Assembly (NCBI GenBank): GCA_963698075.1
Contig: OY969116.1
Span: forward strand, 606,131-670,130
DNA: 64,000 bases
DNA from: an uncultured Candidatus Berkelbacteria bacterium
Lineage (GTDB): Bacteria; Patescibacteriota; UBA1384; UBA12157; JAENIV01
Direction: 5' to 3'
The notes beneath the pieces were generated by a model. It was not told the DNA's origin. It saw only the letters and a list, made by a program, of their open reading frames with translations, and did not search any database. Shown piece by piece: positions 15,663 to 62,996 of this stretch. The position numbers were made by a program, and so were the translations under genes. The stretch's first letter is position 1; each line of letters begins with the position of its first letter.

Positions 15663-16631
15663 ATGCTATGCTTTGGTGTCATGACCATTCGTCAAACCTA
15701 TAATTTAGCCATCGCGATGGGCATTGCCGCTGATCCAAGGGGAAAGCGGGGGATTGAAAAGTGGCTCCAGCGCCAGCGCGCCAAATATAATAAACTTTCC
15801 CGCGATGAGCGCGCCTTATATGACCGCGAGCGCTTAACCAATCCTTATGCCGATACTCGCATTTTATTTGGCGATCCCAATGCCCGCGTCAAAACTATTT
15901 TAGCCGGCATTGATATTAATTCTGGCGATATAGCGCTTTCTAAAACCTTAAACCTGAAACCTGATCTCATCATCAACCACCATCCTCAAGGCAAAGCCCT
16001 GGCCGCTTTAGACGAGGTCATGAATTTACAAGCTGATTTGATGGCGGCCCAAGGCGTGCCCATCAATGTTGCCGAGGGCGTCATGAAAGCCCGCATCGAA
16101 CAAGTTTCCCGCACACTTGCCGGCGCCAATCACTACGAAACCGTTGACGCCGCCAAACTCGCTAAAATCCCATTTATGTGCACTCACACCGTTTGCGATA
16201 ATAATGTTTATAATTTTTTGACAAACTGGCTCGCCCACAAGCATTTTGAAACCGTTGGCGAATTAGTTGAGGCCCTCAAAAAGATTCCTGAATACAAAAT
16301 CGCCGCTCAAAACAATGCTGGTCCGCGCATCTTTGCCGGCTCACCCGAAAATCGAACTGGTAAAATTGTCGCTTTAGAAATCACTGGCGGCACCGAAGGG
16401 TCAAAAGAAGTTTATGAAAAATTAGCCCAAGCTGGAGTGGGCACGATTATCGGCATGCATATGAAAGATGAAAACCGCGAAGAAGCCCTCAAATATCACA
16501 TCAATGTCGTCATTGCCGGCCACATCTCTTCCGACTCCATCGGCATGAATTTGTTCTTAGATAAACTCGCTCAAAAAGGAATTAAAATCATCCCAGTTTC
16601 TGGTTTAATAAGAGTTAAGAGAACTAAATAA
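15663..16631 (+). CDS. Nif3-family dinuclear metal centre protein
   Basis: DLIINHHP (Nif3 D-L-I-x-HHP motif) and C-terminal VVIAGHISSDS. An alternative start is ATG 15681 (MTIRQ). Confidence 0.6.
   Translation: MLCFGVMTIRQTYNLAIAMGIAADPRGKRGIEKWLQRQRAKYNKLSRDERALYDRERLTNPYADTRILFGDPNARVKTILAGIDINSGDIALSKTLNLKPDLIINHHPQGKALAALDEVMNLQADLMAAQGVPINVAEGVMKARIEQVSRTLAGANHYETVDAAKLAKIPFMCTHTVCDNNVYNFLTNWLAHKHFETVGELVEALKKIPEYKIAAQNNAGPRIFAGSPENRTGKIVALEITGGTEGSKEVYEKLAQAGVGTIIGMHMKDENREEALKYHINVVIAGHISSDSIGMNLFLDKLAQKGIKIIPVSGLIRVKRTK
16559..16631 (+). repeat. Direct repeat copy 1 (Nif3 3' end); copy 2 is at 17393-17460
   Basis: The roughly 70 nt from ataaactcgctcaaaaagg... to ...ataa recur after the cofE stop at about 85% identity. 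Both copies keep the reading frame KLAQKGIKIIPVSGLIRV(K/R)R. Confidence 0.7.
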
Positions 16632-16730
16632 TTTCCCAAATGAAAGGCGGGCATCTTCAAAGTCAAAGCCCTCAAAACGTGTAAAATCGTCGCCCACGAG
16701 TTAAGCCTCGAACAAATTCTCGATCGCTAT

Positions 16731-17396
16731 TTGCCCAAAATGAAGGAAAATAGCATTTTAGCCGTCACTTCCAAAATTATCGCCATTGCCGAAAATCGGG
16801 TGGTACCCATCGGCAAAATTGATAAAAAAGCCCTCGTCGAAAAAGAAGCTGATTTATTTATTCCTCAAGATAAAAACAAATACGGCTTCACGATTACCAT
16901 AAAAGGTAGTCTGCTCATTCCTTCGGCTGGCATCGATGAATCCAATGGCAACGGTTATTATATTCTCTGGCCGAGTGACCCGCAAAAATGGGCCAATAAA
17001 ATTAGAAATTATCTTAAAAAACGTTTTGGTCTCCAAAATATCGGCGTCATCATCACTGACAGCAAAACTACCCCACTCAGATGGGGCACCACCGGCGTCA
17101 TGCTGGCCCACGCCGGCTTTAAAGCCTTAAAGAATTACATCAATGAGCCGGACATTTTCGGCCGGCCCTTGCAAGTCACCAAGGCCAACGTTGCCGATGC
17201 TTTAGCGGCTGCGGCGGTGCTCTCCATGGGCGAAGGCAATGAACAAACTCCTCTGGCGATTATAAGCGAGGTGCCTTTTGTAAATTTTCAAAAAAACAAT
17301 CCTTCTAAAAGAGAACTTTCAGGCTTAGCCATCTCGCTTGAAGACGACATCTACGGTAGCATTCTCGGCGCCGTAAAATGGAAAAGATCTAAATAA
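16731..17396 (+). CDS. CofE-like F420-0:gamma-glutamyl ligase family protein
   Basis: N-terminal AVTSKIIAIAENRV resembles the CofE SSKVVSKAEGR region. 221 aa. The gene is flanked by duplicated Nif3 3' ends. Confidence 0.5.
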   Translation: MPKMKENSILAVTSKIIAIAENRVVPIGKIDKKALVEKEADLFIPQDKNKYGFTITIKGSLLIPSAGIDESNGNGYYILWPSDPQKWANKIRNYLKKRFGLQNIGVIITDSKTTPLRWGTTGVMLAHAGFKALKNYINEPDIFGRPLQVTKANVADALAAAAVLSMGEGNEQTPLAIISEVPFVNFQKNNPSKRELSGLAISLEDDIYGSILGAVKWKRSK

Positions 17397-17460
17397 ACTC
17401 GCTCAAAAAGGCATCAAAATCATCCCCGTTTCAGGTCTCATTAGAGTTCGCAGAAAATAA
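17393..17460 (+). repeat. Direct repeat copy 2 of the Nif3 3' end
   Basis: See copy 1. The differences are mostly synonymous or conservative. Confidence 0.7.
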
Positions 17461-18219
17461 TTATTTCTTTCGCCATAAAGTCCAAAAATCGAAACGTTCG
17501 ATTTCAGCGAGTTCTTTTGATTCAATCACAATCATATTAGTGGCGTTCTCTCTTATCGTCAAATAACAAATTTGATCTCTCCAAACCCATTTTTCCGCGT
17601 TCGCCCTCCAGGCATTTTTGTATGGTTTATACAAAATATGAGGGCGGCCAACTATTTCTCGATGTTTTTGGGCGGCTTTAGTATCAGGTAAAATCAAATA
17701 AGTTTTAACTCCCGTTTTATCGTTGAATGCCAAATATTTATCGTAGAACTCTTTATCCATCCCGTACCAATATTCCACATTCCCCGTGGACCAAATCAAA
17801 ATCTCATCACCTTTTTTAGCTCCTTTCATATATTGCCTGTACCACTCGCGCATCGCCAGAGGATTCTCATAAACAGTGATTAGAGGAATGGCTCGTTCGG
17901 CGGAGGCTTGAGATTTTAAAACTGGCATAATTTTGAGGACTTTTTCTTTATTTTTTTGGGCAATATCGGCCAAAATGTCTGGTTCAACGGCTTTGTAATA
18001 ATCCTTGTTGCCAAGGGCAATTTTCTTAATCAGACCCTTTCCCATCATCCCAGGCAATAAAAGATAAACCATCTGGCGGGTGTCGTCCATTTTTTGACCT
18101 AATTGGATGGCCGAAGCCGGACCGAGTTTTAGCGCTGTCAAATATAATCGCGCTTCATTTTTATGAAGGCCAATTGCTTCTAATAGATTATAGATTGCGT
18201 CATTGTTCATAGCTTGCAC
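17461..18219 (-). CDS. TrmB-family transcriptional regulator (paralog 1)
   Basis: The N-terminal wHTH contains EARLYLTALKLGPASAIQLGQ (TrmB signature is YLALLELG). The C-terminus ..IIESKELAEIERFDFWTLW is shared with three paralogs in this window. Confidence 0.7.
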   Translation of the reverse strand: MQAMNNDAIYNLLEAIGLHKNEARLYLTALKLGPASAIQLGQKMDDTRQMVYLLLPGMMGKGLIKKIALGNKDYYKAVEPDILADIAQKNKEKVLKIMPVLKSQASAERAIPLITVYENPLAMREWYRQYMKGAKKGDEILIWSTGNVEYWYGMDKEFYDKYLAFNDKTGVKTYLILPDTKAAQKHREIVGRPHILYKPYKNAWRANAEKWVWRDQICYLTIRENATNMIVIESKELAEIERFDFWTLWRKK

Positions 18220-18256
18220 CGAGCTTGTCGAGGTGTAAAATATTTTCTTTACATTA

Positions 18257-18331
18257 TTATATCATATTCTATTTTCAAGGTCAATACTCGTCGTATATAT
18301 ACTTGACATTCGAGCGATAATGTGATATAAT
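18257..18331. promoter_or_regulatory. Divergent consensus promoters between TrmB-1 and cassette C
   Basis: Minus strand: TTGACC-17-TATAAT. Plus strand: TTGACA (18303-18308)-17-TATAAT (18326-18331) with a TG extension. The plus leader contains the hairpin GATGGG..CCTGT-t-ACAGG..CCCATC. Confidence 0.55.
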
Positions 18332-18402
18332 CAGTTGTTCACGATGGGAGATGGCCTGTTACAGGTTAGCCCATCGGAACGAACCTTACAAGGAGCAAAT
18401 CA

Positions 18403-18669
18403 ATGAAACTGGGCTGGATTCTGATGACGCCGGCATTGGTATACATAGCAACGGGGATAATCTATGCCTTCACCCAGAAAAACCCTTTGCTAAATAGCCG
18501 ATTCTACTTCGGTTCCCTCTGGTTCCGCGATCTTCTGGAGAGATTGTTTCCAGGAAAGATCGATCCCAACAAAGATTGGAGGGCTGCTGTCTCTGTTCTG
18601 CTACTGCTAGCCATCTTTATGATGGCCTTTATCGGACTTCGACTACTACTCGATATGCAGGAAGGATAA
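18403..18669 (+). CDS. Small 2-TM membrane protein (GC-rich cassette C)
   Basis: AAGGAG RBS, two hydrophobic helices, 88 aa. Confidence 0.5.
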   Translation: MKLGWILMTPALVYIATGIIYAFTQKNPLLNSRFYFGSLWFRDLLERLFPGKIDPNKDWRAAVSVLLLLAIFMMAFIGLRLLLDMQEG

Positions 18670-18764
18670 TCATCCGCCCCTCGGTTCCCGAGGGGCGCAA
18701 CCTCGAGTTCCATTAGATACAGGGGTATCTAAAGGGATTGGAGAGTTAACAAAGGAGAAGACAC

Positions 18765-19292
18765 ATGTGGACCACAGGAGAACTGGTCGTTCTAGCCGTT
18801 GTAATATGGTTTCTCATCGGCGGCGTGATCATGTTCCGGATTGGCAATGGAACAGCCGCGCCATTCGCTGTATTTCCGTTCCTCTGCCTACTCTGGCCGC
18901 TGGTCCTGATCCTCCGCCGTTACAACAAGAGGTTCCGGAGGCTGTTGGAAGAGAGTACCTGGTTCAGGTGGCCACCTTTGTCTTGCGAATCTTGCCAACT
19001 CATGGGCGACACCGGCCCGAACGATAGGTGTGGAGAGAAGATGAGAAAAGATGAAGCGAAACTGGATCCTCGCAACAGGTGGAATCGCTGGCATCATGAT
19101 CGCCATCCTCGTGCCTCACATCCACAAGGTGGAGATCGCGCGAGCGTTGGCAGATGCCAAGGCGACCATGGCCCCTGTCTGGACGGTCGCCTCTGTAAGC
19201 CGGTTCACCTTCGAAGGCGACAGAAAGTACGAAACTGGCCTAGTCGTTCCGCATGGCTATGTTCGCCTCTGGATCAAGCCGGCCAACGGTGA
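18765..19292 (+). CDS. Small membrane protein; true 3' end uncertain (probably near 19050)
   Basis: AAAGGAG RBS. The first ~95 aa form two transmembrane helices. The rest of the ORF is Arg-rich low-complexity sequence that overlaps the next gene, which is likely a read-through of an open frame in GC-rich DNA. Confidence 0.35.
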   Translation: MWTTGELVVLAVVIWFLIGGVIMFRIGNGTAAPFAVFPFLCLLWPLVLILRRYNKRFRRLLEESTWFRWPPLSCESCQLMGDTGPNDRCGEKMRKDEAKLDPRNRWNRWHHDRHPRASHPQGGDRASVGRCQGDHGPCLDGRLCKPVHLRRRQKVRNWPSRSAWLCSPLDQAGQR

Positions 19293-19539
19293 GAAGTTTG
19301 AGGGGAAGGAAGCGTATCTGATCGTCGCGACCGGGGAAAGCCCCCAGCTCGAACAGTATCTCAAGGTCAAGCCTGGTGACCAGCTGTACTTCGTGCTCGA
19401 CCAAGAGAATCCCGATCATCTGTCAGGATGGGATTCCTTCGAGAAACTACGGCTCTGGATGGTCGTCCCCGAAGAGAAGCAGAAGGACTATCCAGGCGAC
19501 TTTCGCCAGCACCCGGAATACAGATTTCAGCGCTGGTAA
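19051..19539 (+). CDS. Membrane-anchored hypothetical protein (GC-rich cassette C)
   Basis: N-terminal transmembrane helix, then a soluble domain. 162 aa. Confidence 0.5.
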   Translation: MKRNWILATGGIAGIMIAILVPHIHKVEIARALADAKATMAPVWTVASVSRFTFEGDRKYETGLVVPHGYVRLWIKPANGEKFEGKEAYLIVATGESPQLEQYLKVKPGDQLYFVLDQENPDHLSGWDSFEKLRLWMVVPEEKQKDYPGDFRQHPEYRFQRW

Positions 19540-19574
19540 GAACCATGAGCCGACGGGCACACCGCACGAGTTCT

Positions 19575-19612
19575 GGCGGGGGCCAAAAGCCCCCGCCTTT
19601 TTGTTATTTTTT
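19575..19612 (+). terminator. Intrinsic terminator of cassette C
   Basis: GGCGGGGGC-caaaa-GCCCCCGCC followed by TTTTTGTTATTTTTT. Confidence 0.65.
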
Positions 19613-19638
19613 CTTTCCCCGGCGCTCTCTTTACCCCC

Positions 19639-20082
19639 TTATGGCCGCCAGAGTTTTTGCTGAGGGTTGTCTTGAACAATTTTATCCTCGACGACTTTAA
19701 AATACTCTTCAGCCGCATCAACTGCGTTCTTGGCTTCAGTCTTAACAACAGAAATCGGCTCGTAATAAACCTTATTTCTTTTGGTCGACATTCTGTTATA
19801 AATTGCCGTTAATGTATTAAATTTTACCCCTAAAACTGATTTGGCAAACTTTACCATTATTTTGTGGTGTCCTTTTCTAGACCCGGTACGATAACCCTTG
19901 GATAGCATTAAAGCTAAAGTGGTCGTGACTAATGAATCATAAGCTAATTTAAAAGCCGAGTCAGCGTCGCCGTCAATGAGTTTTTTAGCAGTTTGGTAAG
20001 TTTTTGCTGCTTTCTTTAAATAGTCGTTAATTTGTCTGAAGTTAACTGGCTGTCTTCTTAGTTTCGAAAAGTCGAAGCTCAT
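19639..20082 (-). CDS. HEPN-domain protein (toxin partner of MNT)
   Basis: 147 aa, helical, candidate Rx4-6H motif in RTGSRKGHH. It overlaps the upstream MNT gene by 41 nt. Confidence 0.55.
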   Translation of the reverse strand: MSFDFSKLRRQPVNFRQINDYLKKAAKTYQTAKKLIDGDADSAFKLAYDSLVTTTLALMLSKGYRTGSRKGHHKIMVKFAKSVLGVKFNTLTAIYNRMSTKRNKVYYEPISVVKTEAKNAVDAAEEYFKVVEDKIVQDNPQQKLWRP

Positions 20083-20689
20083 TTTCCCCTCCCTTGATAA
20101 AAATTAGTTTTCCATTAATCAGGTCATGAATATAAGTGTCTTCGTTTTTTAATTTTTCTTGAAACTCTTTCTCAAGCAATATATCAACATTAATTTCTCG
20201 CCCAAAGCGTTCGCTGAGTCTATCGATTCGATCGCTAATTTCCTCAAAAACTCTGTTATTCTTCTTGGCAATTACAAAGAGATCAATGTCACTCTCATTA
20301 TCAAGATTCCCCTTTGCGTAAGAGCCATAAATAAATGAAATGAGAATATTTTGATTAGGAATTATACAAGATCCCAGCAATTTAGGTATTCCGACAGTTT
20401 TGACAACAATATCTCGTAAAGAATTGTATATCGGGCTGTCTTTATCTAAAGAATAAAACTTGATATTTCCGACTTTCTCTGATTTGAGTACCCCAGCTTT
20501 TTCAAGATTAATGAGTTCTCGCCTAATATTTCCGATCGACACCTTGAGGATTCTTTCAAGCTCTCGCATATAAAAACGTTCCTTTGAACTAAGCATAAAC
20601 TGGACTAATAATTTAACTCGAGTTCGCGAGCGGAAAAAATTTAGTGGATTGGCTTTTTGTTCGTCTTGTTCCATAGCGTTGTAGTCCAT
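20042..20689 (-). CDS. wHTH-fused minimal nucleotidyltransferase (MNT, antitoxin-like)
   Basis: N-terminal ArsR-like wHTH (FYMRELERILKVSIGNIRRELINLEKAGVL). C-terminal nucleotidyltransferase fold GSYAKGNLDNESDIDLFVI (GS..D.D). Confidence 0.65.
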   Translation of the reverse strand: MDYNAMEQDEQKANPLNFFRSRTRVKLLVQFMLSSKERFYMRELERILKVSIGNIRRELINLEKAGVLKSEKVGNIKFYSLDKDSPIYNSLRDIVVKTVGIPKLLGSCIIPNQNILISFIYGSYAKGNLDNESDIDLFVIAKKNNRVFEEISDRIDRLSERFGREINVDILLEKEFQEKLKNEDTYIHDLINGKLIFIKGGENELRLFETKKTAS

Positions 20690-20727
20690 TCTGACTACAA
20701 TTGTAGTCCATTTTGACTACAAAATGC
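20684..20727. promoter_or_regulatory. Tandem 22-bp palindromic operator overlapping the MNT start codon
   Basis: Minus strand: TTGTAGTCAAAATGGACTACAA | TTGTAGTCAGAATGGACTACAA. Each unit is an inverted repeat TTGTAGTC-N6-GACTACAA, and the second unit contains ATG-GAC-TAC-AAC, the start of the MNT gene. Confidence 0.55.
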
Positions 20728-20789
20728 AATATTTCATTTAACCGCTTTCTTCAACTCCTCCACTTTATCCGTCTTCTCCCACGGCAAGT

Positions 20790-21530
20790 CTAAAAATTAC
20801 TCCATAGCGCCTCAAAAACTCTTCTTTCCGTTTCTGCGATATCTTGGGATTCGATAATGACGGTTGAAAGTTCTCTTTCGGAGGTAAAATAAGCCACTTT
20901 GTCGTGATAAATCAATTTATTTGCACTTACTTTAAAATCTGGGGGGAGAAATTTGATCTCTCTTAGTTCTTCTTTAGCGGTCTCCTTTAGGGTTTCGGAA
21001 AACTCATCTTTTAATACTAACTGGCGAAATTTAATCTTGCGCCTGATTCTGATAGGAATATATTTCTTTAAGATATATTTTTCGGAAATAACCTGATTTA
21101 AGATACTAACATCGCCAAAGTACAATACCTCGTGATTTGTACCCTCCAAACTCTCTTCAACGGCTTTCAGATAGCCCTCTTGACCCTTATAAAATCGCGT
21201 TGATGGCTCAAAAACTGCTTTTTTCTCAATGGCCTTGAGCTCTGGCAAAATATCTTTAATTTTGACGCTGATGTTCTCTAGTCTCGACAATAATTCCTCA
21301 GGTTTCCCGAGAGTATAGTGGGTGCCATATTTGGCCTTATATTGGCCCAAAATGCCCCGAAAAACGAGTTTTTCGGCAATAAGATAGATTGTTGTTCTTT
21401 TAATCCCTGTAGATAAGGAGATTTCCCTAACGGTGGCGCTTTTTGACCTCAAAAGAGCCAAATAGATTTTAATCTCATCATCTGTCAGTCCATAATCCGA
21501 CAGGGCTTTTTTGATGCTTATTTCCGCCAT
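20790..21530 (-). CDS. TrmB-family transcriptional regulator (paralog 2)
   Basis: DEIKIYLALLRSKSATVREISLSTGIKRTTIY wHTH. C-terminus IIESQDIAETERRVFEALW is paralogous to TrmB-1, -3 and -4. Confidence 0.7.
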   Translation of the reverse strand: MAEISIKKALSDYGLTDDEIKIYLALLRSKSATVREISLSTGIKRTTIYLIAEKLVFRGILGQYKAKYGTHYTLGKPEELLSRLENISVKIKDILPELKAIEKKAVFEPSTRFYKGQEGYLKAVEESLEGTNHEVLYFGDVSILNQVISEKYILKKYIPIRIRRKIKFRQLVLKDEFSETLKETAKEELREIKFLPPDFKVSANKLIYHDKVAYFTSERELSTVIIESQDIAETERRVFEALWSNF

Positions 21531-21571
21531 TTTTGGTCCCTTATTTTAGACGATATTTCTGACATCTATTT

Positions 21572-21652
21572 GATTATAAACCAGATTCTTACTTTTGTCA
21601 AGCATAAATTATTGTCATATATATTGACATTATATTCACATTGTGCTATAAT
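21572..21652. promoter_or_regulatory. Divergent consensus promoters between TrmB-2 and cassette D
   Basis: Plus strand: TTGACA (21624-21629)-17-TATAAT (21647-21652) with a TG extension. Minus strand: TTGACA-17-TATAAT upstream of TrmB-2. Confidence 0.55.
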
Positions 21653-21694
21653 CATGAGTTATGCGAAGAGAACCTTGACAAGGAGAAAAAGGCA

Positions 21695-22132
21695 ATGAAA
21701 CTCGTTCGGCTCGTTCGTTCGAAGCAGACTTTTCCGCTTCGGAAGAGCCCCTACTCAATTAGTGATTGGGTAGGGAGAATAGCGTCGCCGTACATGTCTT
21801 GCCCCGATGGTACCAGTATCGACAAGCTTGTGTTGTGTCCAGAGACTGGTCAGGCCGCGATTCTCGTGTCGTACGATGGTGAAAAATGTGAGTTGACCTA
21901 TGCCGGGAATACGCCAGAGAGAGCCGACCCCGGCCTAATAGCTTCGGCAAGAATGCCAGACGGTACACCTGTAAAAGGAGCGGGATTCTGTTTGCGGGCA
22001 CCTTGTATCATCTGTAGCCGGCCCAAATCCCGAAGTTGGACTTGGGTTTACCTCTGCGTCGAAGACAAAGAAAGGCGCAAGATACCTCTTCCTGTCCTAT
22101 CGTTTCTCGACGCGATCGGTCCTGGCGTGTGA
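21695..22132 (+). CDS. Cys-rich small protein, member 1 of a tandem paralog pair (GC-rich cassette D)
   Basis: ATG 21695 after AAGGAG. Shared motifs with its neighbour: CPDG..., TYAGNTPER, C..C SRPKSRSWTWVYLCVEDKERRK. Confidence 0.5.
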   Translation: MKLVRLVRSKQTFPLRKSPYSISDWVGRIASPYMSCPDGTSIDKLVLCPETGQAAILVSYDGEKCELTYAGNTPERADPGLIASARMPDGTPVKGAGFCLRAPCIICSRPKSRSWTWVYLCVEDKERRKIPLPVLSFLDAIGPGV

Positions 22133-22158
22133 AACCACAGGAGAAAAGGAGAAAGACG

Positions 22159-22584
22159 ATGAGAAACGGTACTGTGGTGAAGAAGGATAAGTACACTCTG
22201 AAGAGATGGCTGGACACCATCTACAAGAAAAGCACTTGCCCAGATGGGTCACCAATCACTCAATTTCGTCCCTGTGGTGACCATGGACAGGGATCGCTGG
22301 CCACCATCCTGATCAACGCCTGGTGCACAATCAAAGGGGCGATGGACGACCTTCGAGTAGATGTGACCTACGCCGGTAAGGCGCCTGAAAGAATCACGGA
22401 CGAGACAAGCGAGAGCCTCATCGCTGATTCCGTAATGGGTGTCTTCACGGAATTCAGGATGGACGGTAATAGCATAGTCTGTTCCCGGCAAAGGTTTGGT
22501 AACAACAAACCCATTGCTCATCATGTCTATATGTGTTTGACAAGAGATGAGTGGGAAAGACGCCGGGCGGGCATGAAGAGTTAG
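22159..22584 (+). CDS. Cys-rich small protein, member 2 of the tandem paralog pair
   Basis: ATG 22159 after AAAGGAG. CPDGSPI.., TYAGKAPER, CSRQRFGNNKPIAHHVYMCLTRDEWERRR align with member 1. Confidence 0.5.
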   Translation: MRNGTVVKKDKYTLKRWLDTIYKKSTCPDGSPITQFRPCGDHGQGSLATILINAWCTIKGAMDDLRVDVTYAGKAPERITDETSESLIADSVMGVFTEFRMDGNSIVCSRQRFGNNKPIAHHVYMCLTRDEWERRRAGMKS

Positions 22585-22606
22585 CAACCTTCCGAACGCC
22601 TACCGT

Positions 22607-22636
22607 GGGGCGCGCGAAAGCGCGCCCTTTTGTTTT
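22607..22636 (+). terminator. Intrinsic terminator of cassette D
   Basis: GGGGCGCGC-gaaa-GCGCGCCC followed by TTTTGTTTT. Confidence 0.65.
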
Positions 22637-22727
22637 AGCTTATTTCCCAACCGCCTTTTTGAGTTCTCTAATCTATAAATATAATAAAATTCTTGCGGTC
22701 GAAAAGAAATTATTATATCCTTCCTTA

Positions 22728-23915
22728 TTATTTAACAGCGGACTGAAGCTCTTTGACCTTATTATTTTTTTCCCATGGAAGATTAAGGTCCGGTCTCCCA
22801 AAATGTCCGTATGCCGCCACTTGGCGATATAAAGGACGGCGGAGATTGAGTTCTTTGATGATAATCCCCGGTCTTAAATCAAACACCTTTAATATCGCCT
22901 CTTCGATTTTGGATTCATCAACTTTGCCGGTGCCGAAAGTATCCACGCGGACCGACATCGGTTCCGGCCGGCCGATGGCGTAAGCAATCTGAATTTCAAC
23001 GCGGTCGGCAAGTCCGGCGGCAACAACATTCTTCGCCACCCAACGGGCGGCGTAAGAACCCGAGCGGTCAACTTTTGTCGGATCTTTGCCGGAAAAACAG
23101 CCGCCGCCGTGCCGCGCCGTGCCGCCGTAAGTATCAACAATTATTTTTCGTCCCGTTAAACCGGTATCGCCTTGCGGTCCGCCAATCACAAATCGGCCGG
23201 TGGTATTAACAAAATATTTGGTTTTTGCATCTAGATACTTAGCCGGAATCACTTTTTTAATCACCTGCTCAATAATATCTTTTTTCAGTTTTGCCAATTT
23301 GACTTCTGGCTCATGTTGGGCGGCAATGAGAACATTTTCGATCCTCGCTGGCTTATCATCGATATACTCTACCGTCACTTGCGATTTGCCGTCTGGCCGC
23401 AAGCCCTTGATAATTTTTTTCTTCCGGACTTCGGCTAATCGTTGACACAAGCGATGGGCTAAGACAATTGGCATTGGCATTAATTCTGGCGTTTCGCGGC
23501 AGGCAAAGCCAAACATCAAGCCTTGGTCGCCAGCGCCCAAATTTTCCAAATCTTCAGCCACAATTTCACCGGTTTTACCTTTTTCTTTAAATGAATCCAC
23601 CCCGCGGGCAATATCGGACGACTGTTCTTTAATCGCCACCGTCACGCCCGAGGTTTCCCAAGAAAAACCGCAATCACCATCCAAATATCCGATATCCTTG
23701 ATAACACCACGGGCAATTTTGGGAATATCAACATAAGTTTTGGTGGTAATTTCACCAGCAACAAAACAAATGCCGTTGGTGAGCAATGTTTCGCAAGCCA
23801 CCCGGCCGCGCGGATCGTCTTTTAAAATGGCGTCTAAAATGGCATCGGAAATTTGATCCGCCATTTTGTCCGGATGCCCTTCGGTCACTGACTCGGAAGT
23901 AAAAAGTTTTTTCAT
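22728..23915 (-). CDS. metK: S-adenosylmethionine synthetase
   Basis: [29 protein letters not shown]... is the canonical MetK N-terminus. The conserved glycine-rich loops are present. 395 aa. Confidence 0.9.
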
Positions 23916-24105: not shown

Positions 24106-24142
24106 ATGCAATTTAAAGTTCCCCAAAACATTGATTTGGAAG
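24106..24142 (+). pseudogene. Duplicated 5' fragment of the PrgI-like gene (first 12 codons)
   Basis: atgcaatttaaagttccccaaaacattgatttggaag differs at 6 of 37 nt from the true gene start at 24251. It has its own GAAGGAGG RBS and is out of frame with the real gene. Confidence 0.55.
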
Positions 24143-24250
24143 GCCCCGCAAAATTCCTTTCTGTTTACAGAATTACATTCTGTCACACAGAAGCGTCATC
24201 TGCGGGGCGAGACTCATTAGCATCGAAAACTATTATCAAGGAGGTAGGCG

Positions 24251-24658
24251 ATGCAGTTTAAGGTGCCCCAGAATATAGATTTGGAAGACAAAATTGTTGG
24301 ACCGCTGACTTTAATCCAGTTTTTGTATGTCCTTGGCGGCGGGGTGATTATCTATTTGCTCTATCTTTCTTTAAATATGCGCTTTCTTTTCTGGGTCCTC
24401 GCCATTCCTATTGGCATTATTGCGGCGTCCTTGGCATTTTTAAAAATCCAAGATCAACCTTTGTCGCATTTTATCAAGGCCGGCTTGATTTATTTAAGCC
24501 AGCCCAAGAAACGCCTCTGGCAACGGGCCGGTCTAGTCAAACCCGTGGTTTTTGCTGTCGCCAAAAAAGAAAAGAAAATCATTGCCCCGCCCAAAAGAAA
24601 AATTGAAAAAAGCGAATTAGAACAATTAGCCCAAATGCTGGACACCCGACGGGTGTAA
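24251..24658 (+). CDS. PrgI/VirB3-like small membrane protein of a T4SS
   Basis: 135 aa, two transmembrane helices, basic C-terminus. It lies immediately upstream of the VirB4-like genes, as in Gram-positive and CPR T4SS loci. Confidence 0.5.
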   Translation: MQFKVPQNIDLEDKIVGPLTLIQFLYVLGGGVIIYLLYLSLNMRFLFWVLAIPIGIIAASLAFLKIQDQPLSHFIKAGLIYLSQPKKRLWQRAGLVKPVVFAVAKKEKKIIAPPKRKIEKSELEQLAQMLDTRRV

Positions 24659-47968: not shown

Positions 47969-48937
47969 TCAACGACTGCGGGAGAAGGAAACGCCGAGAG
48001 CGCCACCCCGATCGCCAGGTCCATCCGCATCGACACAGACACCATCAGACCCGAAGCCGCCGACACCGACGAGCCCGCCCCCAGAGTTCCGACGACCAGT
48101 CCAAGAATAAATATTTTCTAGTAATCTTTGCTCATTATTTTCACGGTACATTATAAGGTCATAGAGAGCCTCTACCGGTTTTTGTCGTGTTAATTCAGTA
48201 ATTTTAAGCGCCTCTAGTCGTGCAGCTGCCTCTTTCCAATCAGAATCGATTAAACGCTCAATTTCCGAACGTTTGCCATTAAATTCTTCAACGGCTTCCT
48301 GAAATTCTTTTGGCAATGCACCACCCGGAAACGCCTGATTAAGATAGCCTATAATAGTATCTGTCTGTTCGAGATAGTTTTTACTTGTAGAATCGGGAAT
48401 AACTTCTTTGGAAGTAAGCGCCCATTCCATTTGTGGTGTTTCTTCGGTAAAAAATTTCTCGCCTTTATACCAATCAGTATCGTAGAGAACTTTTTCGTCC
48501 CTTCCTTCAAAACGAGCCGAAAGAAGACCCTCCATGCGTTCCATAGTCAGCGGGCTACCGTCAAGGTCACAATTTGCTCTTAAAACTAAGAATTGACCCA
48601 ACCCCTTCGCTTTTTCGAGTTCAGTTGCACTAAAAGGAATACTGGGGACTTCGGCGGAATTTATTTTTATCCCGAATGCCTTTTCGACTTCTTCTGGGCC
48701 CAGGCAATCACTACCTAAAATTTCTTTAGCTTTTTCAACCTGTTTGGCAATCTCACCACCCAATTCCGGTTCGGAAGTTATCCCAAATAGCCCTTTCAAT
48801 TCAAGAGCTTTTTGCAGAATCGCTTCATAGTCGGCGTCGGTCCTAGCACGACTTCGAAGTACAGTGATTTCTTTAGCAATTGTTATGCCTTGTGTCTCTT
48901 TTTCAGCGTCTTCTGGAGTTGGACCAAATTCGCTCAT
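47969..48937 (-). CDS. DGR target protein 1 (C-type-lectin/FGE-like C-terminal domain carrying VR1)
   Basis: C-terminus ..NIYSWTGRRNSGGGLVGVGGFGSDGVCVDADGPGDRGGALGVSFSRSR* matches the CLec VR pattern (..RGGSW...PDNRN..GFR). The body is paralogous to the C-terminal 250 aa of target 2. Confidence 0.75.
   Translation of the reverse strand: MSEFGPTPEDAEKETQGITIAKEITVLRSRARTDADYEAILQKALELKGLFGITSEPELGGEIAKQVEKAKEILGSDCLGPEEVEKAFGIKINSAEVPSIPFSATELEKAKGLGQFLVLRANCDLDGSPLTMERMEGLLSARFEGRDEKVLYDTDWYKGEKFFTEETPQMEWALTSKEVIPDSTSKNYLEQTDTIIGYLNQAFPGGALPKEFQEAVEEFNGKRSEIERLIDSDWKEAAARLEALKITELTRQKPVEALYDLIMYRENNEQRLLENIYSWTGRRNSGGGLVGVGGFGSDGVCVDADGPGDRGGALGVSFSRSR
47974..48097 (-). repeat. DGR variable repeat VR1
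   Basis: 21 mismatches against the TR, all at TR template-sense A positions (plus-strand T in TR becomes C, G or A). The flanking 25 nt including the stop are identical or nearly identical (IMH-like GGGAGAAGGAAACGCCGAG). Confidence 0.85.
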
Positions 48938-49023
48938 ATTTTTATTCCTTTACCTATTAAATAAAATTTGTATCGACCGCCTCCGGCGGATCAAAGCCAC
49001 AAATATCAAATAACAAAGTTACA

Positions 49024-49148
49024 GACTGCGGGAGAAGGAAACGCCGAGATCGCCACCCCGATCGCCAGGCTCAGGCGCACCGACATCGACACCATCAGAC
49101 CCGAAGCCGCCGACACCTGACGAGCCTGCCCCCAGAGCGCCGACGTTT
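49024..49148 (-). repeat. DGR variable repeat VR2 (contains a 1-nt insertion relative to TR and VR1)
   Basis: About 22 mismatches against the TR, all at template-sense A positions. There is one extra nucleotide at about 49116-49118 (plus strand caCCTga against TR caTTga). Confidence 0.8.
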
Positions 49149-55706: not shown

Positions 55707-55714
55707 TGATACTC

Positions 55715-57767: not shown

Positions 57768-58079
57768 TTTTACTCCTTTCGTTACTTGTCGCGTCTTTTA
57801 ACAAAAAAGGCGCGATTTGCAAACAAAAAATTACCTTTCGGTAAATTTTCATTTGAAACTCGCGCCTTAAAAGCGTCGATCTCAAACGTAGATTATTAAA
57901 TTTTTTAACTGTTTGTTGCTTTACGCAACTACAATCTTATTATAAAGTATCCATCTAATTTGTCAAGCTCCAGTAATCAACCATTCCCTGTTTACCAATG
58001 GCTCTTCAGGTGATATATTTATGATGATAGATTATAAACAACACAGATTTAACTTTTACCACAAATAAAAAAGATCAAT

Positions 58080-58625
58080 ATGAGATTATTTAAGAAAAAA
58101 ATTACAGAGCAAAATGCCGTTGAGGAATTTATTCATTGGACAATGGAGGCAGTTTTGGATTGCTGGCCTGACGTCTATAAGGATTTTCGCAGTTTTACTA
58201 AAGACATTTGCAAAGAAGATATTGTTATAAAAGACGAGAAGATGGCTTCTCATAATTTTTATTTATCCATTATCGCCATAAATCTTATAGTGATTAAGAA
58301 TTTACACCATAAAGATCAAGGGGATAGATTAATAAGTTTGATCACAAAATCGGTTAGCCCTGAAAAAAATGAATATACCCTTAAACTGCTTGAGACTTAT
58401 CAAAATGATTGGAGTAAAGCTATTGATAAAAAAGAGATGCCCTTGCACTCTATTATAGTTCGCCTATTTAGAGAATGGCTGGATGATGAAAATTTTAATA
58501 AAATTTGCGTGGGGGAATTCGTTGATCCATTATTGATAACTGCGATGAATCAAAGGTTGATGCATTTTTATGGAGGATGGAAAAAAATAGTTGATAATTA
58601 TAAGTTAATCCCGAGTAATCATTAA
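58080..58625 (+). CDS. Hypothetical protein flanked by ~50-bp direct repeats
   Basis: 181-aa ORF with no motif. Repeats at 57988-58040 and 58668-58720. Confidence 0.45.
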   Translation: MRLFKKKITEQNAVEEFIHWTMEAVLDCWPDVYKDFRSFTKDICKEDIVIKDEKMASHNFYLSIIAINLIVIKNLHHKDQGDRLISLITKSVSPEKNEYTLKLLETYQNDWSKAIDKKEMPLHSIIVRLFREWLDDENFNKICVGEFVDPLLITAMNQRLMHFYGGWKKIVDNYKLIPSNH

Positions 58626-58659
58626 CTTTTAAAGAAAATAGTCCATCAAAAATAATCAA

Positions 58660-58798
58660 TGTTCTCCTGTTTACCAATCGCTCTTCAGGTGATATATTTA
58701 TGATGATAAATTACGAACACCAAATTGATCAAATGGTCCATAAACTTTATGGCTTAACTCATGAAGAAATCGAAACAATCGAACAAAAATCGCAGTAA
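58660..58798 (+). pseudogene. Remnant C-terminal tail of an N6-adenine MTase or Type IIG/BREX-PglX-like enzyme
   Basis: Encodes ..SSGDIFMMINYEHQIDQMVHKLYGLTHEEIETIEQKSQ*, the typical ..VDKLVYELYGLTEEEIKIVE tail. There are stops upstream. A second decayed copy lies at 57988-58078 and a third, different one at about 59700-59797 (..IDRPVHKLYGYARGNKSL*). Confidence 0.5.
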
Positions 58799-59675
58799 AA
58801 AACATCACTATCTCCCTAAGTATTATTTAAAAGGATTTACAAATAGTAAAAACGGTTTTTTTGTTTATGACAAACAGGCGGACAAAATCTTTAGGACTAG
58901 CCCCGATACTACCTTCTTTGAAAATAATTTAAATACAATAACCTTGTCCGATGGCAATTCTAGTGATTCTTTAGAGAATCTTTACACTGGCATTGAAAAT
59001 AGTTCATGGGATTCATTTGATAGGATTAGAAATTCAGATAGTTTGACTGTCATTGACCTCTTAGACAAGATGAATCTTTACCTTTTTTTACTTGTTCTAC
59101 ATTGGAGATTACCGAGTAATTTCAAGTATGTAGAAAACTTATCGGGGAAGATGTTTACAAATGACAAAAACCTCAATTTTATGTCTTTAAAAAACAAAAA
59201 TGGGGTTGATGCTTCTAAGGAATTTACGGAAATGCTGAAGGATTCTTCTGCTTTCAAAAAATCTTCAAGGTTAATTGTTCCTTTTGCGCCATTTTATGAA
59301 AAGAACTGGAGCGACAGTTTATACGATTGGAGATTTTTATATACTGGTGACATAAAAAATTGGTATGTTGTAGGAGATAATCCTATTATTACTAAAGGAG
59401 ATAATGACCACGATCCAGTAGATTGTCTTAAGGAATTCATTTTTTCTGTTTCTGGAAAGATACTTTTAGTCAACACTAACAAACCCATAAATAAAGGGCT
59501 TCCTTCTGAATTCGTAATACAATATAACATCTCCATGGTTGAAAGAGCCCAAAGGTTTATAGCATGCCCTAATAAAGACTTTTTAGAAGCGTTGATAAAA
59601 CACTATAAGATATATGTTCAATTTGGGAAAACAGACACTATAATTATGGAAATGTTTAAAATGTTAGAAAAGTAG
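58761..59675 (+). CDS. DUF4238-family protein (defence-island associated)
   Basis: N-terminal HHYLPKYYLKGF matches the DUF4238 signature HYVPQFYLKNF. 304 aa. The start codon lies inside the MTase-tail remnant. Confidence 0.6.
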   Translation: MKKSKQSNKNRSKKHHYLPKYYLKGFTNSKNGFFVYDKQADKIFRTSPDTTFFENNLNTITLSDGNSSDSLENLYTGIENSSWDSFDRIRNSDSLTVIDLLDKMNLYLFLLVLHWRLPSNFKYVENLSGKMFTNDKNLNFMSLKNKNGVDASKEFTEMLKDSSAFKKSSRLIVPFAPFYEKNWSDSLYDWRFLYTGDIKNWYVVGDNPIITKGDNDHDPVDCLKEFIFSVSGKILLVNTNKPINKGLPSEFVIQYNISMVERAQRFIACPNKDFLEALIKHYKIYVQFGKTDTIIMEMFKMLEK

Positions 59676-62199: not shown

Positions 62200-62266
62200 T
62201 TTTTCTAATCCAAACAAAAAGTCTTCGAAATCTTTTAGATAAAGCCAAAAGAGAGGGAACGATAAA

Positions 62267-62650
62267 ATGAAAGATAGAAAAATAATTCTTGAACTTACGC
62301 CCGAAGAAGTTAGACTATTAGCATACGGTGCTATGCCAAATGATTTGAAAGCAAGGTTAAGAGAAATTGCTCATCATATTGATGGGCAGATTAAAGTTGA
62401 AGAAGACTTAGAAAAGGTAGTGCCAAAATTACCAGATCCCAATAATTATATCGATATAGTCCGGAAAAAATATCCCAGGGCTTACCACAAATGGGCTAAG
62501 GAAGAGAGTATCAGATTAAAAATGCTTTTTTCTGAAGGTAGTTCAATTAAGGAAATATCAAGTTTACTGCAAAGGCAACCAGGAGGAGTTCGTTCAAAAT
62601 TAATAAAAATGGGATTATTGGAGGAAATTAAAAATGATTCAAACCGCTGA
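62267..62650 (+). CDS. Hypothetical protein with possible C-terminal HTH
   Basis: 127 aa, SIKEISSLLQRQPGGVRSKL. First of four tightly packed or overlapping genes. Confidence 0.45.
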   Translation: MKDRKIILELTPEEVRLLAYGAMPNDLKARLREIAHHIDGQIKVEEDLEKVVPKLPDPNNYIDIVRKKYPRAYHKWAKEESIRLKMLFSEGSSIKEISSLLQRQPGGVRSKLIKMGLLEEIKNDSNR

Positions 62651-62996
62651 AGAATTCATTCAATACAAGATAGAACAGTTTAAAAGAGGATTGCTGATAA
62701 AAGTCAAGGATATCAGTCGTAATGGTTTCCATTATTGGAAAAGAGAAGCTTGGACTTTTATGCCACAAAGCAATTATGATGGTAAAGTTTTTATTATTGA
62801 AAGGTTGGAGAGGGTTAAATCTGACATAGAATCTGCTAAAATCGGTGATATCGAATATAGAATCGGTTATTATATTGTTGGTAAAATAGGAAGAGCAAAT
62901 GGAAAATGGACTTGGGGACAATTTTGTCCATTAATACCACAGGAAGATTTTGCTAAATTATTTGATAAAGCGAAAAGAGAAGGAACTATAAAATAA
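62634..62996 (+). CDS. Hypothetical protein
   Basis: 120 aa. It overlaps the upstream gene by 17 nt. Its last 11 codons are duplicated upstream at 62238-62270. Confidence 0.45.
   Translation: MIQTAEEFIQYKIEQFKRGLLIKVKDISRNGFHYWKREAWTFMPQSNYDGKVFIIERLERVKSDIESAKIGDIEYRIGYYIVGKIGRANGKWTWGQFCPLIPQEDFAKLFDKAKREGTIK

What the first reader, a model, noticed from the sequence alone, without database searches (positions are those of the whole stretch)
16559..62996. Recurrent signature: inserted genes flanked by short duplications of a neighbouring gene end
At least four independent cases occur: the Nif3 tail around cofE (16559/17393); the PrgI start (24106/24251); the MTase-tail remnant around 58080-58625 (57988/58668); and the DKAKREGTIK tail around 62267-62996 (62238/62964). 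In each case a 33-70-bp piece of a gene end is duplicated on both sides of an inserted segment and keeps coding potential. This points to a common insertion or recombination mechanism acting at gene termini, for example target-primed or microhomology-mediated cassette insertion. It could be related to how the GC-rich cassettes were acquired.
Basis: inference. Interest (0 to 1): 0.55.

Follow-up and report, generated by a model that had tools for sequence, protein, structure and literature searches.

The report
Duplicated gene ends flanking acquired genes
In this small-genome candidate-phyla-radiation (Patescibacteria) bacterium, several acquired DNA segments lie between two diverged copies of the end or start of a neighbouring gene; these look like scars of recombination with DNA from related lineages, a known route of gene gain called 'insertion with long target duplication', and not a new insertion machine.

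Summary
All four repeat pairs exist and are far beyond chance. A protein-level scan added a fifth case, the metK tail. Relatives show the conserved order RNase J - Nif3 - [variable] - metK(-) - PrgI - VirB4, and one relative has Nif3 and metK 16 nt apart. The extra Nif3 and metK tails in the window are intact natural alleles: the Nif3 remnant differs from the working tails of two relatives by 8 substitutions, all synonymous. The working copies are a different allele that arrived with the insert. The same scars recur independently in relatives: three Nif3 tails in series in L019, two metK tails in L026, and the same PrgI-start duplication in L010. The inserts carry no integrase, transposase, terminal inverted repeats or common junction motif. 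Junctions sit at short microhomologies and at different codons in different lineages. Best reading: homology-anchored recombination on one side and an illegitimate join on the other, with DNA from diverged relatives, survivors being seen only at gene boundaries. This is the known 'insertion with long target duplication' class. Case 3 is a duplicated promoter-like segment of a methylase-gene remnant and is not coding-conserved. Case 4 is a remnant upstream of the gene pair and its history is unresolved. The only mechanistically defined gene-end repeat is a classical DGR at 46.1-49.1 kb, which is unrelated to the four cases.

The parts
16558..16635 (+). Working 3' end of the Nif3-family gene (15663/15681-16631), tail allele ...GLIRVKRTK*. 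This is the incoming-type copy of case 1.
   Evidence: The tail is nucleotide-closest to L003, the other genome with cofE (about 90% against 73% for L010). The gene body is closest to L010. The last ~15 informative sites switch to L003 type.
16636..17389 (+). Insert of case 1: a cofE-like gene (F420-0:gamma-glutamyl ligase family). The listed ORF is 16731-17396; the likely start is upstream, near 16653.
   Evidence: Pfam PF01996, E = 5e-37. The gene is absent between Nif3 and metK in L005, L004, L009, L010, L002 and L026, and present in L003 (87% aa).
17390..17460 (+). Orphan Nif3 tail (resident-type allele ...KLAQKGIKIIPVSGLIRVRRK*). It starts at the cofE stop codon and ends directly against the stop of the convergent TrmB-like gene 17461-18219(-).
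   Evidence: tblastn E = 1e-9. It is identical in protein to the working tails of L004 and L009. All 8 nucleotide differences are third-position and synonymous.
20734..20793 (-). Orphan metK tail LDLPWEKTDKVEELKKAVK* (new fifth case). It starts at the stop codon of TrmB-like gene 20790-21530(-).
   Evidence: tblastn E = 4e-6. It is an L003/L002/L013-type allele (77-81% nt; 8 synonymous and 2 non-synonymous codon differences against L003). It is only 66% identical to the window's own working tail.
20794..22727 (.). Insert between the two metK tails: TrmB-like gene 20790-21530(-) and two paralogous unknown genes, 21641-22132(+) and 22036-22584(+).
   Evidence: It has no counterpart in L005, L003 or L010.
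22728..22826 (-). Working 3' end of metK (22728-23915). The tail and about 80 nt downstream are L010-type.
   Evidence: 85% nt identity to L010 11469-11599.
24106..24142 (+). First copy of the PrgI start (12 codons, MQFKVPQNIDLE) behind the native promoter, leader and RBS. It opens a 51-codon ORF (24106-24261).
   Evidence: The same structure is present in the independent contig L001 and in L010.
24143..24250 (+). 108-nt insert of case 2: a nested hairpin (24143-24208) followed by its own RBS.
   Evidence: Inverted repeat. RNA fold z = -2.9. The 56-nt core is 100% identical in L010. No Rfam family matches. The insert is absent from L003, L005 and L002.
24251..24287 (+). Second copy: the true start of the PrgI-family gene (24251-24658).
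   Evidence: Pfam PF12666. All 6 differences from copy 1 are synonymous. Identity to L010 drops from 92-96% to 56-83% at about 24200-24233.
57957..58043 (+). Case 3, copy 1: a degenerate fragment reading ...LFTNGSSGDIFMMIDYKQH, with a promoter-like site at 57991-58019.
58044..58635 (+). Insert of case 3: unknown gene 58080-58625 (181 aa).
   Evidence: No Pfam or PADLOC family matched, and no viral relative was found.
58636..58798 (+). Case 3, copy 2 (58636-58722). It continues into a methylase-type C-terminal tail, QIDQMVHKLYGLTHEEIETIEQKSQ*, which overlaps the start of the DUF4238 gene (58761-59675).
   Evidence: In the plasmid collection the tail peptide falls mainly in genes annotated N-6 DNA methylase, TaqI_C or Eco57I, but each E-value is weak.
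62205..62270 (+). Case 4: orphan tail ...LLDKAKREGTIK* of a homologue of gene B. Its TGA stop overlaps the ATG of gene A (62267-62650).
   Evidence: (E = 1e-4). The tail is conserved in the B family. L024 has A-B but a different gene upstream, and homology starts at 62262.
62931..62999 (+). Working tail of gene B (62634-62996), the partner copy of case 4.

Best explanation
The repeats are scars of recombinational gene gain from diverged relatives, not the product of a dedicated insertion machine.

Proposed steps:
1. A piece of foreign DNA enters. It overlaps the end or start of a conserved resident gene (Nif3, metK, PrgI) and also carries extra DNA.
2. It pairs homologously in the conserved gene on one side.
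3. On the other side it is joined illegitimately at a few bases of microhomology, a little inside the resident gene end.
4. The gene is now completed by the incoming allele of its end. The extra DNA follows, and the displaced resident end remains as an orphan copy.
5. Repeated events at the same boundary stack orphan tails in series.
6. Later homologous exchange can replace one side of a duplication and create or increase the divergence between the copies.

Only joins that leave one intact gene copy survive in this compact genome, so the scars are seen only at gene termini.

Shown: the insertions relative to empty sites; the allelic nature of the copies; mosaic breakpoints; recurrence in other lineages; the absence of mobile-element genes.

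Inferred: the order of steps; the one-sided-homology-plus-microhomology chemistry (homology-facilitated illegitimate recombination, HFIR); DNA entry by natural transformation or by the chromosomal conjugation-type T4SS.
For: 1. Empty sites and hot spot. The backbone RNase J - Nif3 - [variable] - metK(-) - PrgI - TraC-like - VirB4 is conserved. L005 has Nif3 and metK 16 nt apart. Other relatives carry different cargo at that position.

2. The copies are different natural alleles.
- The Nif3 orphan is protein-identical to the L004/L009 working tails, and all 8 nucleotide differences are synonymous.
- The metK orphan has 8 synonymous and 2 non-synonymous codon differences against L003.
- The working tails are of another type (L003-like for Nif3, L010-like for metK).

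3. Mosaicism. The Nif3 body is L010-like and the last ~15 informative sites are L003-like. Window against L010 is 92-96% identical through the intergenic region, copy 1 and the hairpin, then 56-83% from about 24233 onward. L026 and L027 are 99.2% identical for 2020 nt and diverge inside the metK tail.

4. Independent recurrence with different break positions.
- L019 has three Nif3 tails: one intact, a ~17-codon remnant with a frameshift, and a 41-codon remnant.
- L026 has a 26-codon second metK tail 90 nt after the working one.
- L010 has the PrgI-start duplication.

5. Microhomology at junctions: ATAAA (cofE stop / Nif3 remnant), AAATAATTTCT flanking cofE in L003, GGCGCTCTCTT flanking a GC-rich insert in L010, and ATAAAATGA at the start of gene A.

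6. No integrase, transposase or RT in the inserts, and no terminal inverted repeats.

7. Isolated duplicates occur only at gene termini.

8. Literature.
- Furuta et al. 2010 (PMC2853133) describe 'insertion with long target duplication'. It has no mobility genes, its repeats often span start or stop sites, and it occurs mostly in naturally competent species.
- Natural competence has been shown in cultured Saccharibacteria, which belong to Patescibacteria (PMC10633639).
Against: - No donor genome with exactly the incoming arrangement was found, so the one-sided-homology model is inferred from mosaic patterns in short regions.
- The ...KRTK tail allele is not exclusive to cofE carriers. L026 has it without cofE.
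- In two junctions the inserted gene's stop codon abuts the orphan tail exactly (cofE, TrmB-like). That is tidier than random illegitimate joins would predict, although later deletion in a streamlined genome could explain it.
- In L010 the two PrgI-start copies are identical over the coding part. This fits a true target duplication, or gene conversion, better than two alleles.
- Case 3 shows no coding conservation and has no comparator. Case 4 has the orphan on the 'wrong' side for the simple model, and its history is unresolved.
- In laboratory HFIR the usual by-product is deletion of recipient DNA, not duplication (own knowledge).
Confidence: 0.6

Rival explanations
1. True target-site duplication at the moment of insertion: widely staggered breaks, fill-in, and identical copies. 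This is the literal model of 'insertion with long target duplication'. The present divergence would then arise later through allelic replacement of one side or gene conversion.
For: In L010 the two PrgI-start copies are identical over the 12-codon coding part apart from the start-codon base. In the window the difference between copies coincides with a haplotype breakpoint inside the insert. The repeat lengths (37-87 nt) are in the range reported by Furuta et al..
Against: For Nif3, the working tail type is shared with the only other cofE carrier found (L003), and the orphan equals the allele of cofE-less genomes. Replacing only the orphan later by homologous exchange would need homology on both sides, and cofE-less donors lack that. 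The two metK copies are only 66% identical.
Confidence: 0.15
2. Site-specific integration of small mobile cassettes that carry a mimic of the target gene's end, as phage 21 and e14 do at icd, or as islands do at tRNA genes. The recombinase would be supplied in trans, for example by the large serine recombinase at 43232-44593.
For: The architecture fits: an intact gene completed by element-borne sequence, with the displaced native end at the far side. Tandem accumulation of remnants in L019 resembles tandem islands at tRNA genes. A serine recombinase lies next to tRNA-Ser in the window.
Against: There is no recombinase in any insert. Remnants begin at different codons in different events: 22 codons in the window, about 17 and 41 in L019, and 19 versus 26 for metK. 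This argues against a fixed crossover core. There is no common motif at the junctions. Some 'inserts' are only 90-140 nt of non-coding DNA (L019, L026). The targets are unrelated (Nif3 end, metK end, PrgI start).
Confidence: 0.1
3. The second copies are kept because they now have a function. In case 2 this would be a translated 51-codon leader ORF with a hairpin, coupled to PrgI. In case 3 it would be duplicated promoters driving the inserted gene and DUF4238. In case 4 it would be the RBS and coupling region for gene A. On this view the pattern reflects selection on regulatory duplications rather than insertion history.
For: Copy 1 of the PrgI start differs from the L010 copy only by synonymous or start-codon changes, and the ORF is preserved in both genomes. 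The 56-nt hairpin core is 100% conserved. Each case 3 copy has a TTTACC-17-TATATT site with TG before the second hexamer. The orphan B tail supplies GAGGGA and an ATGA overlap for gene A.
Against: This does not explain the origin of the duplications. It also does not explain the Nif3 and metK orphans, which have no start codon and lie against convergent gene ends. The synonymous-only pattern of case 2 is equally explained by the recent exchange shown.
Confidence: 0.08
4. Chance similarity, or assembly chimeras between co-assembled strains.
For: The genome comes from a metagenome, and the copies resemble alleles of different strains.
Against: The scores are far above an empirical null. The junctions share only 4-11 nt, too little for k-mer graph chimeras. 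The same or analogous structures appear in independent assemblies from other samples (L001, L010, L019, L026).
Confidence: 0.02

Closest known systems
Insertion with long target duplication (Nobusato et al. 2000, cited in Furuta et al. 2010, PMC2853133)
   Same: Inserts without mobility genes are flanked by direct repeats longer than 30 bp that correspond to a single-copy target in related genomes. The repeats often span a translation start or stop, so the target gene stays intact. The phenomenon is found mostly in naturally competent bacteria.
   Different: The published cases are R-M genes with nearly identical repeats (for example 44/46 or 417/423). Here the cargo is not R-M (cofE, TrmB-like regulators, unknown genes, a 108-nt hairpin). 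The copies are 66-86% identical and are different natural alleles. The host is a Patescibacteria genome, and the scars are stacked at one hot spot.
Homology-facilitated illegitimate recombination during natural transformation (de Vries & Wackernagel 2002 and Prudhomme et al. 2002, recalled from own knowledge; discussed in PMC6382021)
   Same: There is a homologous anchor on one side and a microhomology join on the other. It needs no element-encoded enzymes and allows foreign genes to enter next to conserved genes.
   Different: Laboratory events usually delete recipient DNA at the illegitimate end. Here the recipient gene end is retained as a duplicate. Dependence on transformation or RecA was not tested.
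Integrative elements that carry a replacement gene end (phage 21 and e14 at icd; islands at tRNA/tmRNA 3' ends) (own knowledge)
   Same: The target gene is completed by incoming sequence that differs mainly at synonymous sites, and the native end is left as a pseudo-copy on the far side. Tandem remnants can accumulate.
   Different: There is no integrase in the inserts, no fixed crossover core and variable remnant lengths. Some inserts are tiny and non-coding.
Diversity-generating retroelement (template repeat and variable repeats at gene 3' ends)
   Same: A nearby direct repeat of a gene's 3' end. A real DGR is present in this window (RT 46144-47214(-), TR 47558-47678, VRs 47974-48094 and 49024-49144).
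   Different: DGR mismatches fall at template adenines: 22 of 22 and 24 of 27 here. The four cases show synonymous or mixed substitutions and have no adjacent RT.

Membership tests
Insertion with long target duplication | The insert is flanked by direct repeats longer than 30 bp that align to one copy at an empty site in a related genome. | tested here: met
   - Case 1: single Nif3 tail in L005, L004, L009 and L010.
- metK: single tail in L003, L005 and L010.
- Case 2: single PrgI start in L003, L005 and L002.
- Cases 3 and 4: no empty-site comparator. L024 only shows a different left flank.
Insertion with long target duplication | No transposase, integrase or other mobility gene, and no terminal inverted repeats in the inserted segment. 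| tested here: met
   Pfam and PADLOC scans of the insert genes. The inverted-repeat scan found no pair bracketing an insert.
Insertion with long target duplication | The two repeats are near-identical to each other and to the target, that is, a true duplication of resident sequence. | tested here: not met
   Window copies are 66-86% identical and are different alleles. The feature is met only in L010 for the PrgI start.
Homology-facilitated illegitimate recombination | Donor-type sequence extends from the insert into the adjacent conserved gene (the homologous anchor). | tested here: met
   Informative sites switch from L010 type to L003 type near the Nif3 tail. The metK tail and 80 nt downstream are L010-type. 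A haplotype break lies inside the case 2 insert.
Homology-facilitated illegitimate recombination | The other junction lies at 3-12 bp of microhomology between donor and recipient. | tested here: inconclusive
   ATAAA at the cofE/orphan junction, and 11-nt repeats in L003 and L010. The actual donor sequences are unknown.
Homology-facilitated illegitimate recombination | Depends on DNA uptake and RecA. | not testable with these tools
   Only literature is available: competence shown in cultured Saccharibacteria (PMC10633639).
Site-specific integrative element targeting a gene end (phage 21/icd type, tRNA islands) | An integrase or recombinase is encoded in the inserted element. | tested here: not met
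   None is present in 16636-17389, 17461-22727, 24143-24250, 58044-58635 or 62267-62996.
Site-specific integrative element targeting a gene end (phage 21/icd type, tRNA islands) | The same crossover core is used in independent events. | tested here: not met
   Nif3 remnants start 22, about 17 and 41 codons before the stop. metK remnants start 19 and 26 codons before the stop.
Diversity-generating retroelement | An RT gene is nearby and template/variable repeat mismatches are confined to template adenines. | tested here: not met
   The four cases have no adjacent RT, and their substitutions are not adenine-specific. The feature is met for the separate repeats at 47558-49144.
Transposon or MITE insertion | Terminal inverted repeats with a short (2-14 bp) target duplication, and multiple copies. 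| tested here: not met
   No bracketing inverted repeats. The hairpin insert is found only at this one site, in the window, its near-identical contig L001 and L010. Its peptide occurs only in this genome among 5.8 billion proteins.
Integron cassette array | An IntI integrase and attC sites at cassette ends. | tested here: inconclusive
   No tyrosine recombinase was found among the proteins scanned. No dedicated attC search was run. The repeats are coding-derived direct repeats, not imperfect palindromes.

The most novel reading that the evidence does not exclude
Patescibacteria may build integrase-free cassette arrays by using short, highly conserved gene-end sequences as portable recombination linkers. 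The clearest hint is the methylase-type tail (D/N)Y(E/K)xQIDQMVYKLYxLTxEEIKIIE. It precedes the DUF4238 gene in the window. In an unrelated Patescibacteria contig (L022) it recurs three times in full, with two further partial matches, each just upstream of the next small unknown gene, and no methylase gene was called in the 2.8 kb of the contig upstream of the array. The tail contains the Shine-Dalgarno sequence and a stop/start overlap for the downstream gene. It could therefore act both as a homology patch for cassette exchange and as an expression adaptor.
Probability: 0.1. Interest if true: 0.65.

Novelty: new member of a known kind. Interest (0 to 1): 0.35.

Why it matters
- It shows, at base-pair resolution, how an ultra-small, streamlined CPR genome gains genes without transposons or integrases. 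Conserved genes act as recombination handles, and the old gene ends remain as datable scars.
- The scars allow one to order successive acquisitions, recognise donor lineages and find recombination hot spots. Here the hot spot is the convergent Nif3/metK junction beside the chromosomal T4SS genes.
- That junction tolerates very different cargo in every relative examined. It is therefore a plausible neutral landing site for genetic engineering of Patescibacteria.
- The finding extends 'insertion with long target duplication' beyond R-M genes and beyond the phyla where it was described.
- It suggests that at least some such events involve two alleles of the target rather than a copy of one.

Tried and rejected
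- DGR as the cause. A real DGR exists at 46.1-49.1 kb, but the four cases lack adenine-specific changes.
- A mobile hairpin element. The 56-nt core occurs only at the PrgI site in the window, L001 and L010. Its encoded peptide is found only in this genome. No Rfam family matches.
- Viral origin of cases 3 and 4. Two scans of viral contigs found no relatives.
- Family assignment of the case 3 tail by Pfam, PDB or a 1.84-billion-protein phmmer search. Pfam gave no match for the window peptide, PDB gave nothing, and the phmmer search gave only short orphan ORFs with the same motif plus one unrelated 1010-aa repeat protein at a weak E-value. A tblastn search of the plasmid collection placed the tail mostly in methylase, TaqI_C or Eco57I genes, but with weak E-values.
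- Prediction that the ...KRTK Nif3 tail always travels with cofE. This was falsified by L026.
- Remnants of native HSP70 or RNase J next to the GC-rich versions. None were found; these are in-place, highly diverged positional orthologues.
- PADLOC annotation of the genes around cases 3 and 4. Only the two methyltransferases matched.
- Exact-match look-up of the Nif3 ORF failed because the called start differs.
- Terminal inverted repeats at insert ends. None were found.


Full report
**Observation**

The four repeat pairs are real.

| Case | Copy 1 | Copy 2 | Length and identity |
|---|---|---|---|
| 1 | 16558-16635 | 17390-17467 | 78 nt, 81% |
| 2 | 24106-24142 | 24251-24287 | 37 nt, 84% |
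| 3 | 57957-58043 | 58636-58722 | 87 nt, 79% (core 86%) |
| 4 | 62228-62273 | 62955-62999 | 46 nt; 21 codons at protein level |

- Self-BLAST gives E = 3e-13, 2e-3 and 6e-16 for cases 1-3.
- In 20,000 random nearby segment pairs from the same window, no local score exceeded 36. The four cases score 82, 44, 93 and 56.
- I tiled the proteins of 66 selected ORFs into 25-residue pieces and searched the six-frame translation. Isolated duplicated fragments exist only for terminal tiles: Nif3 C-terminus, metK C-terminus, gene B C-terminus and PrgI N-terminus. That is 4 of 130 terminal tiles against 0 of 584 internal tiles.
- All internal hits belong to full paralogues, internal repeats of one large protein, or the DGR (Fisher p = 0.001).
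- This scan uncovered a fifth case. A second metK tail lies at 20734-20793(-), about 2 kb from the working end of metK.

**Context**

- The window comes from a Patescibacteria (CPR) genome. The nearly full-length copy of the Nif3 protein (P0001, 100% identity over 98% of the query) is on a 929-kb contig, and homologues are named Berkelbacteria or Patescibacteria.
- The window includes dnaA, dnaN and recF and chromosomal T4SS genes (PrgI, TraC-like, VirB4).
- From tRNA-Ser (42959-43048) onward there is a large serine recombinase gene directly beside the tRNA, then a DGR, two methyltransferases and genes of unknown function. Cases 3 and 4 lie in this part. It may be an integrated element, but its limits were not tested.

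**Case 1 and the metK case**

- Related contigs share the order HSP70 - RNase J - Nif3 - [variable] - metK(-) - PrgI - TraC-like - VirB4.
- In L005, Nif3 and metK are 16 nt apart. L003 has cofE plus one ORF between them. L004, L006 and L009 have an 830-aa ORF and more. L010 has about 530 nt. L026 has an HTH gene and small ORFs. The convergent Nif3/metK junction is therefore an insertion hot spot.
- The window's orphan Nif3 tail (17390-17460) encodes KLAQKGIKIIPVSGLIRVRRK*. This is identical to the working tails of L004 and L009, and all 8 nucleotide differences are third-position and synonymous.
- It is thus an intact natural allele, recently displaced. It ends directly against the stop codon of the convergent TrmB-like gene, which looks like a former native arrangement.
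- The working tail (...RVKRTK*) is nucleotide-closest to L003, the other genome with cofE. The Nif3 body is closest to L010. Informative sites switch from L010 type to L003 type near the 3' end.
- The cofE stop codon meets the orphan at the microhomology ATAAA. In L003, cofE is flanked by an 11-nt repeat, AAATAATTTCT.
- On the other side of the hot spot, the working metK tail and about 80 nt downstream are L010-type. The orphan (LDLPWEKTDKVEELKKAVK*) is an L003/L002/L013-type allele. It begins at the stop codon of a TrmB-like gene that forms the insert together with two unknown paralogues.

**Recurrence in other lineages**

- L019 has three Nif3 tails in series. The first is intact. The second is a ~17-codon remnant with a frameshift, followed by its own native downstream terminator. 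The third is a 41-codon remnant.
- L026 has a 26-codon second metK tail 90 nt after the working one. L027 is 99.2% identical to L026 for 2020 nt and diverges inside that tail.
- A landmark motif of the spacer (TTTCYCYGGCGCTCTCTTTAC) is present once in the window, L003 and L019. In L010 it is present twice, where an 11-nt repeat brackets a 410-nt GC-rich insert.
- The remnants begin at different codons in each event, and some 'inserts' are only 90-140 nt of non-coding DNA.
- In the relatives the tile test again found isolated duplicates only at termini. Combined with the window this gives 6 of 336 terminal against 0 of 1726 internal, p = 2e-5.

**Case 2**

- The native promoter, leader and RBS are followed by 12 codons of PrgI. 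Then comes a 108-nt insert (nested hairpin 24143-24208 plus its own RBS), and then the real PrgI gene.
- L003, L005 and L002 lack the insert. L010 has it, with the two coding copies identical apart from the start codon. An independent Logan contig reproduces the window structure.
- Window and L010 are 92-96% identical from the intergenic region through copy 1 and the hairpin. They are only 56-83% identical from about 24233 onward.
- The six synonymous differences between the window copies therefore reflect a later allelic replacement with a breakpoint inside the insert.
- The 56-nt hairpin core is 100% identical between the two genomes. It matches no Rfam family and occurs nowhere else in the data searched.
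- A 51-codon ORF starting at copy 1 and ending inside the PrgI start is preserved in both genomes. A regulatory role is possible but untested.

**Case 3**

- The repeated core reads ...LFTNxSSGDIFMMI(D/N)Y... and is not coding-conserved (2 synonymous and 9 non-synonymous codon differences).
- Only copy 2 continues into QIDQMVHKLYGLTHEEIETIEQKSQ*, which overlaps the start of the DUF4238 gene.
- In the plasmid collection this tail peptide falls mainly in genes annotated N-6 DNA methylase, TaqI_C or Eco57I. The E-values are weak. Pfam, PDB and a 1.84-billion-protein search gave nothing decisive.
- Each copy carries a promoter-like site (TTTACC-17-TATATT, with TG before the second hexamer) facing the downstream gene.
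- No comparator genome was found. In an unrelated Patescibacteria contig (L022) the same tail motif recurs three times in full, with two further partial matches, each just upstream of the next small unknown gene.

**Case 4**

- The orphan ...LLDKAKREGTIK* (62205-62270) is the tail of a homologue of gene B. The tail is conserved in that family.
- It lies upstream of gene A, with its TGA stop overlapping A's ATG.
- L024 (about 90% nt identity) has A-B-next gene, but a different gene ends at the same ATAAAATGA. Homology begins at 62262. The history is unresolved.

**Mechanism**

- No integrase, transposase or RT is present in any insert, and there are no bracketing inverted repeats or shared junction motif.
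- A classical DGR explains the repeats at 47558-49144: 22 of 22 and 24 of 27 mismatches fall at template adenines. It is irrelevant to the four cases.
- The evidence fits homology-anchored recombination with DNA from diverged relatives plus an illegitimate microhomology join that leaves the resident gene end in place.
- This belongs to the class published as 'insertion with long target duplication'. In that class the repeats often span start or stop sites, and most hosts are naturally competent (PMC2853133).
- Natural competence has been demonstrated in cultured Patescibacteria (PMC10633639).
- The restriction to gene termini is most simply explained by selection and detectability.
- What differs from the published class: the cargo is not R-M, the scars are stacked, and the two copies are distinct alleles.

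**Verdict**

Noticed in passing
window 46144-49144 (minus strand): Complete diversity-generating retroelement. The RT gene is 46144-47214. The template repeat is 47558-47678, and two variable repeats lie at the 3' ends of paralogous target regions (47974-48094 and 49024-49144). Mismatches fall at template adenines in 22 of 22 and 24 of 27 positions. The second target region follows an AAA_5 ATPase ORF (49095-51113) in a way that suggests a frameshift or a fused target.
   Followed up: yes
window 24143-24208; L010 13021-13076: A nested hairpin whose 56-nt core is 100% identical between two genomes that are otherwise about 75-85% identical in this region's genes. It is embedded in a conserved 51-codon ORF that ends inside the PrgI start codon region. 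No Rfam family matches. It may be a cis-regulatory leader for the T4SS operon.
   Followed up: partly
L022 2784-7226: An array in another Patescibacteria genome. Three full copies, plus two partial matches, of a methylase-type C-terminal tail (IDQMVYKLY(N/G)LTxEEIKIIE...) each sit just upstream of the next small unknown gene, often with a stop/start overlap. The array follows ribosomal protein genes and ends at a homologue of window gene B.
   Followed up: partly
window 9600-15600: GC-rich (55-63%) HSP70 and RNase J genes, and a neighbouring gene, sit at the same positions as their AT-richer counterparts in relatives. They are only 37-53% identical in protein, while the adjacent Nif3 is 84-90% identical. 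This looks like in-place replacement by distant alleles. No orphan fragments were found.
   Followed up: partly
window 42959-44593: tRNA-Ser(CGA) is directly followed by a large serine recombinase gene (43232-44593, minus strand). Low-GC genes of accessory type follow to the end of the window. This may be an integrated element, but its far end is not in the window.
   Followed up: no
window 44756-44881 (+): Match to Rfam LOOT RNA (RF03000), 74 bits against a gathering score of 46.4.
   Followed up: no
window 19611-19640; L003 11711-11735; L010 11025-11045 and 11446-11466; L019 1594-1618: Conserved spacer motif TTTCYCYGGCGCTCTCTTTAC in the Nif3-metK variable region of several relatives. In L010 two copies bracket a 410-nt GC-rich insert that contains a small ORF.
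   Followed up: partly
window 16640-16735: The cofE-like reading frame and its conserved N-terminus (IFKVKALKT...) extend upstream of the first ATG/GTG/TTG. In both the window (ATC at 16653) and L003 (ATT) the only candidate start after the in-frame stop is an ATY codon behind AAAGGCGG. This suggests a non-canonical start codon.
   Followed up: no
L009 5276-5412 and 8578-8709: Two copies (93% identical, 138 nt) of a GC-rich, apparently structured sequence lie 3.3 kb apart in the variable region of a relative.
   Followed up: no
window 19639-20689 (minus strand): A pair of adjacent genes, one with a HEPN domain and one with nucleotidyltransferase (Polbeta/NTP_transf_2) domains, typical of toxin-antitoxin modules. 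It lies in the middle of the Nif3-metK variable region, directly downstream of the orphan metK tail.
   Followed up: no
window 30300-31850 (within ORF 29207-32224): Tandem internal repeats with a period of about 123 nt (roughly 41 residues) in a 1005-aa protein encoded downstream of the T4SS genes.
   Followed up: no
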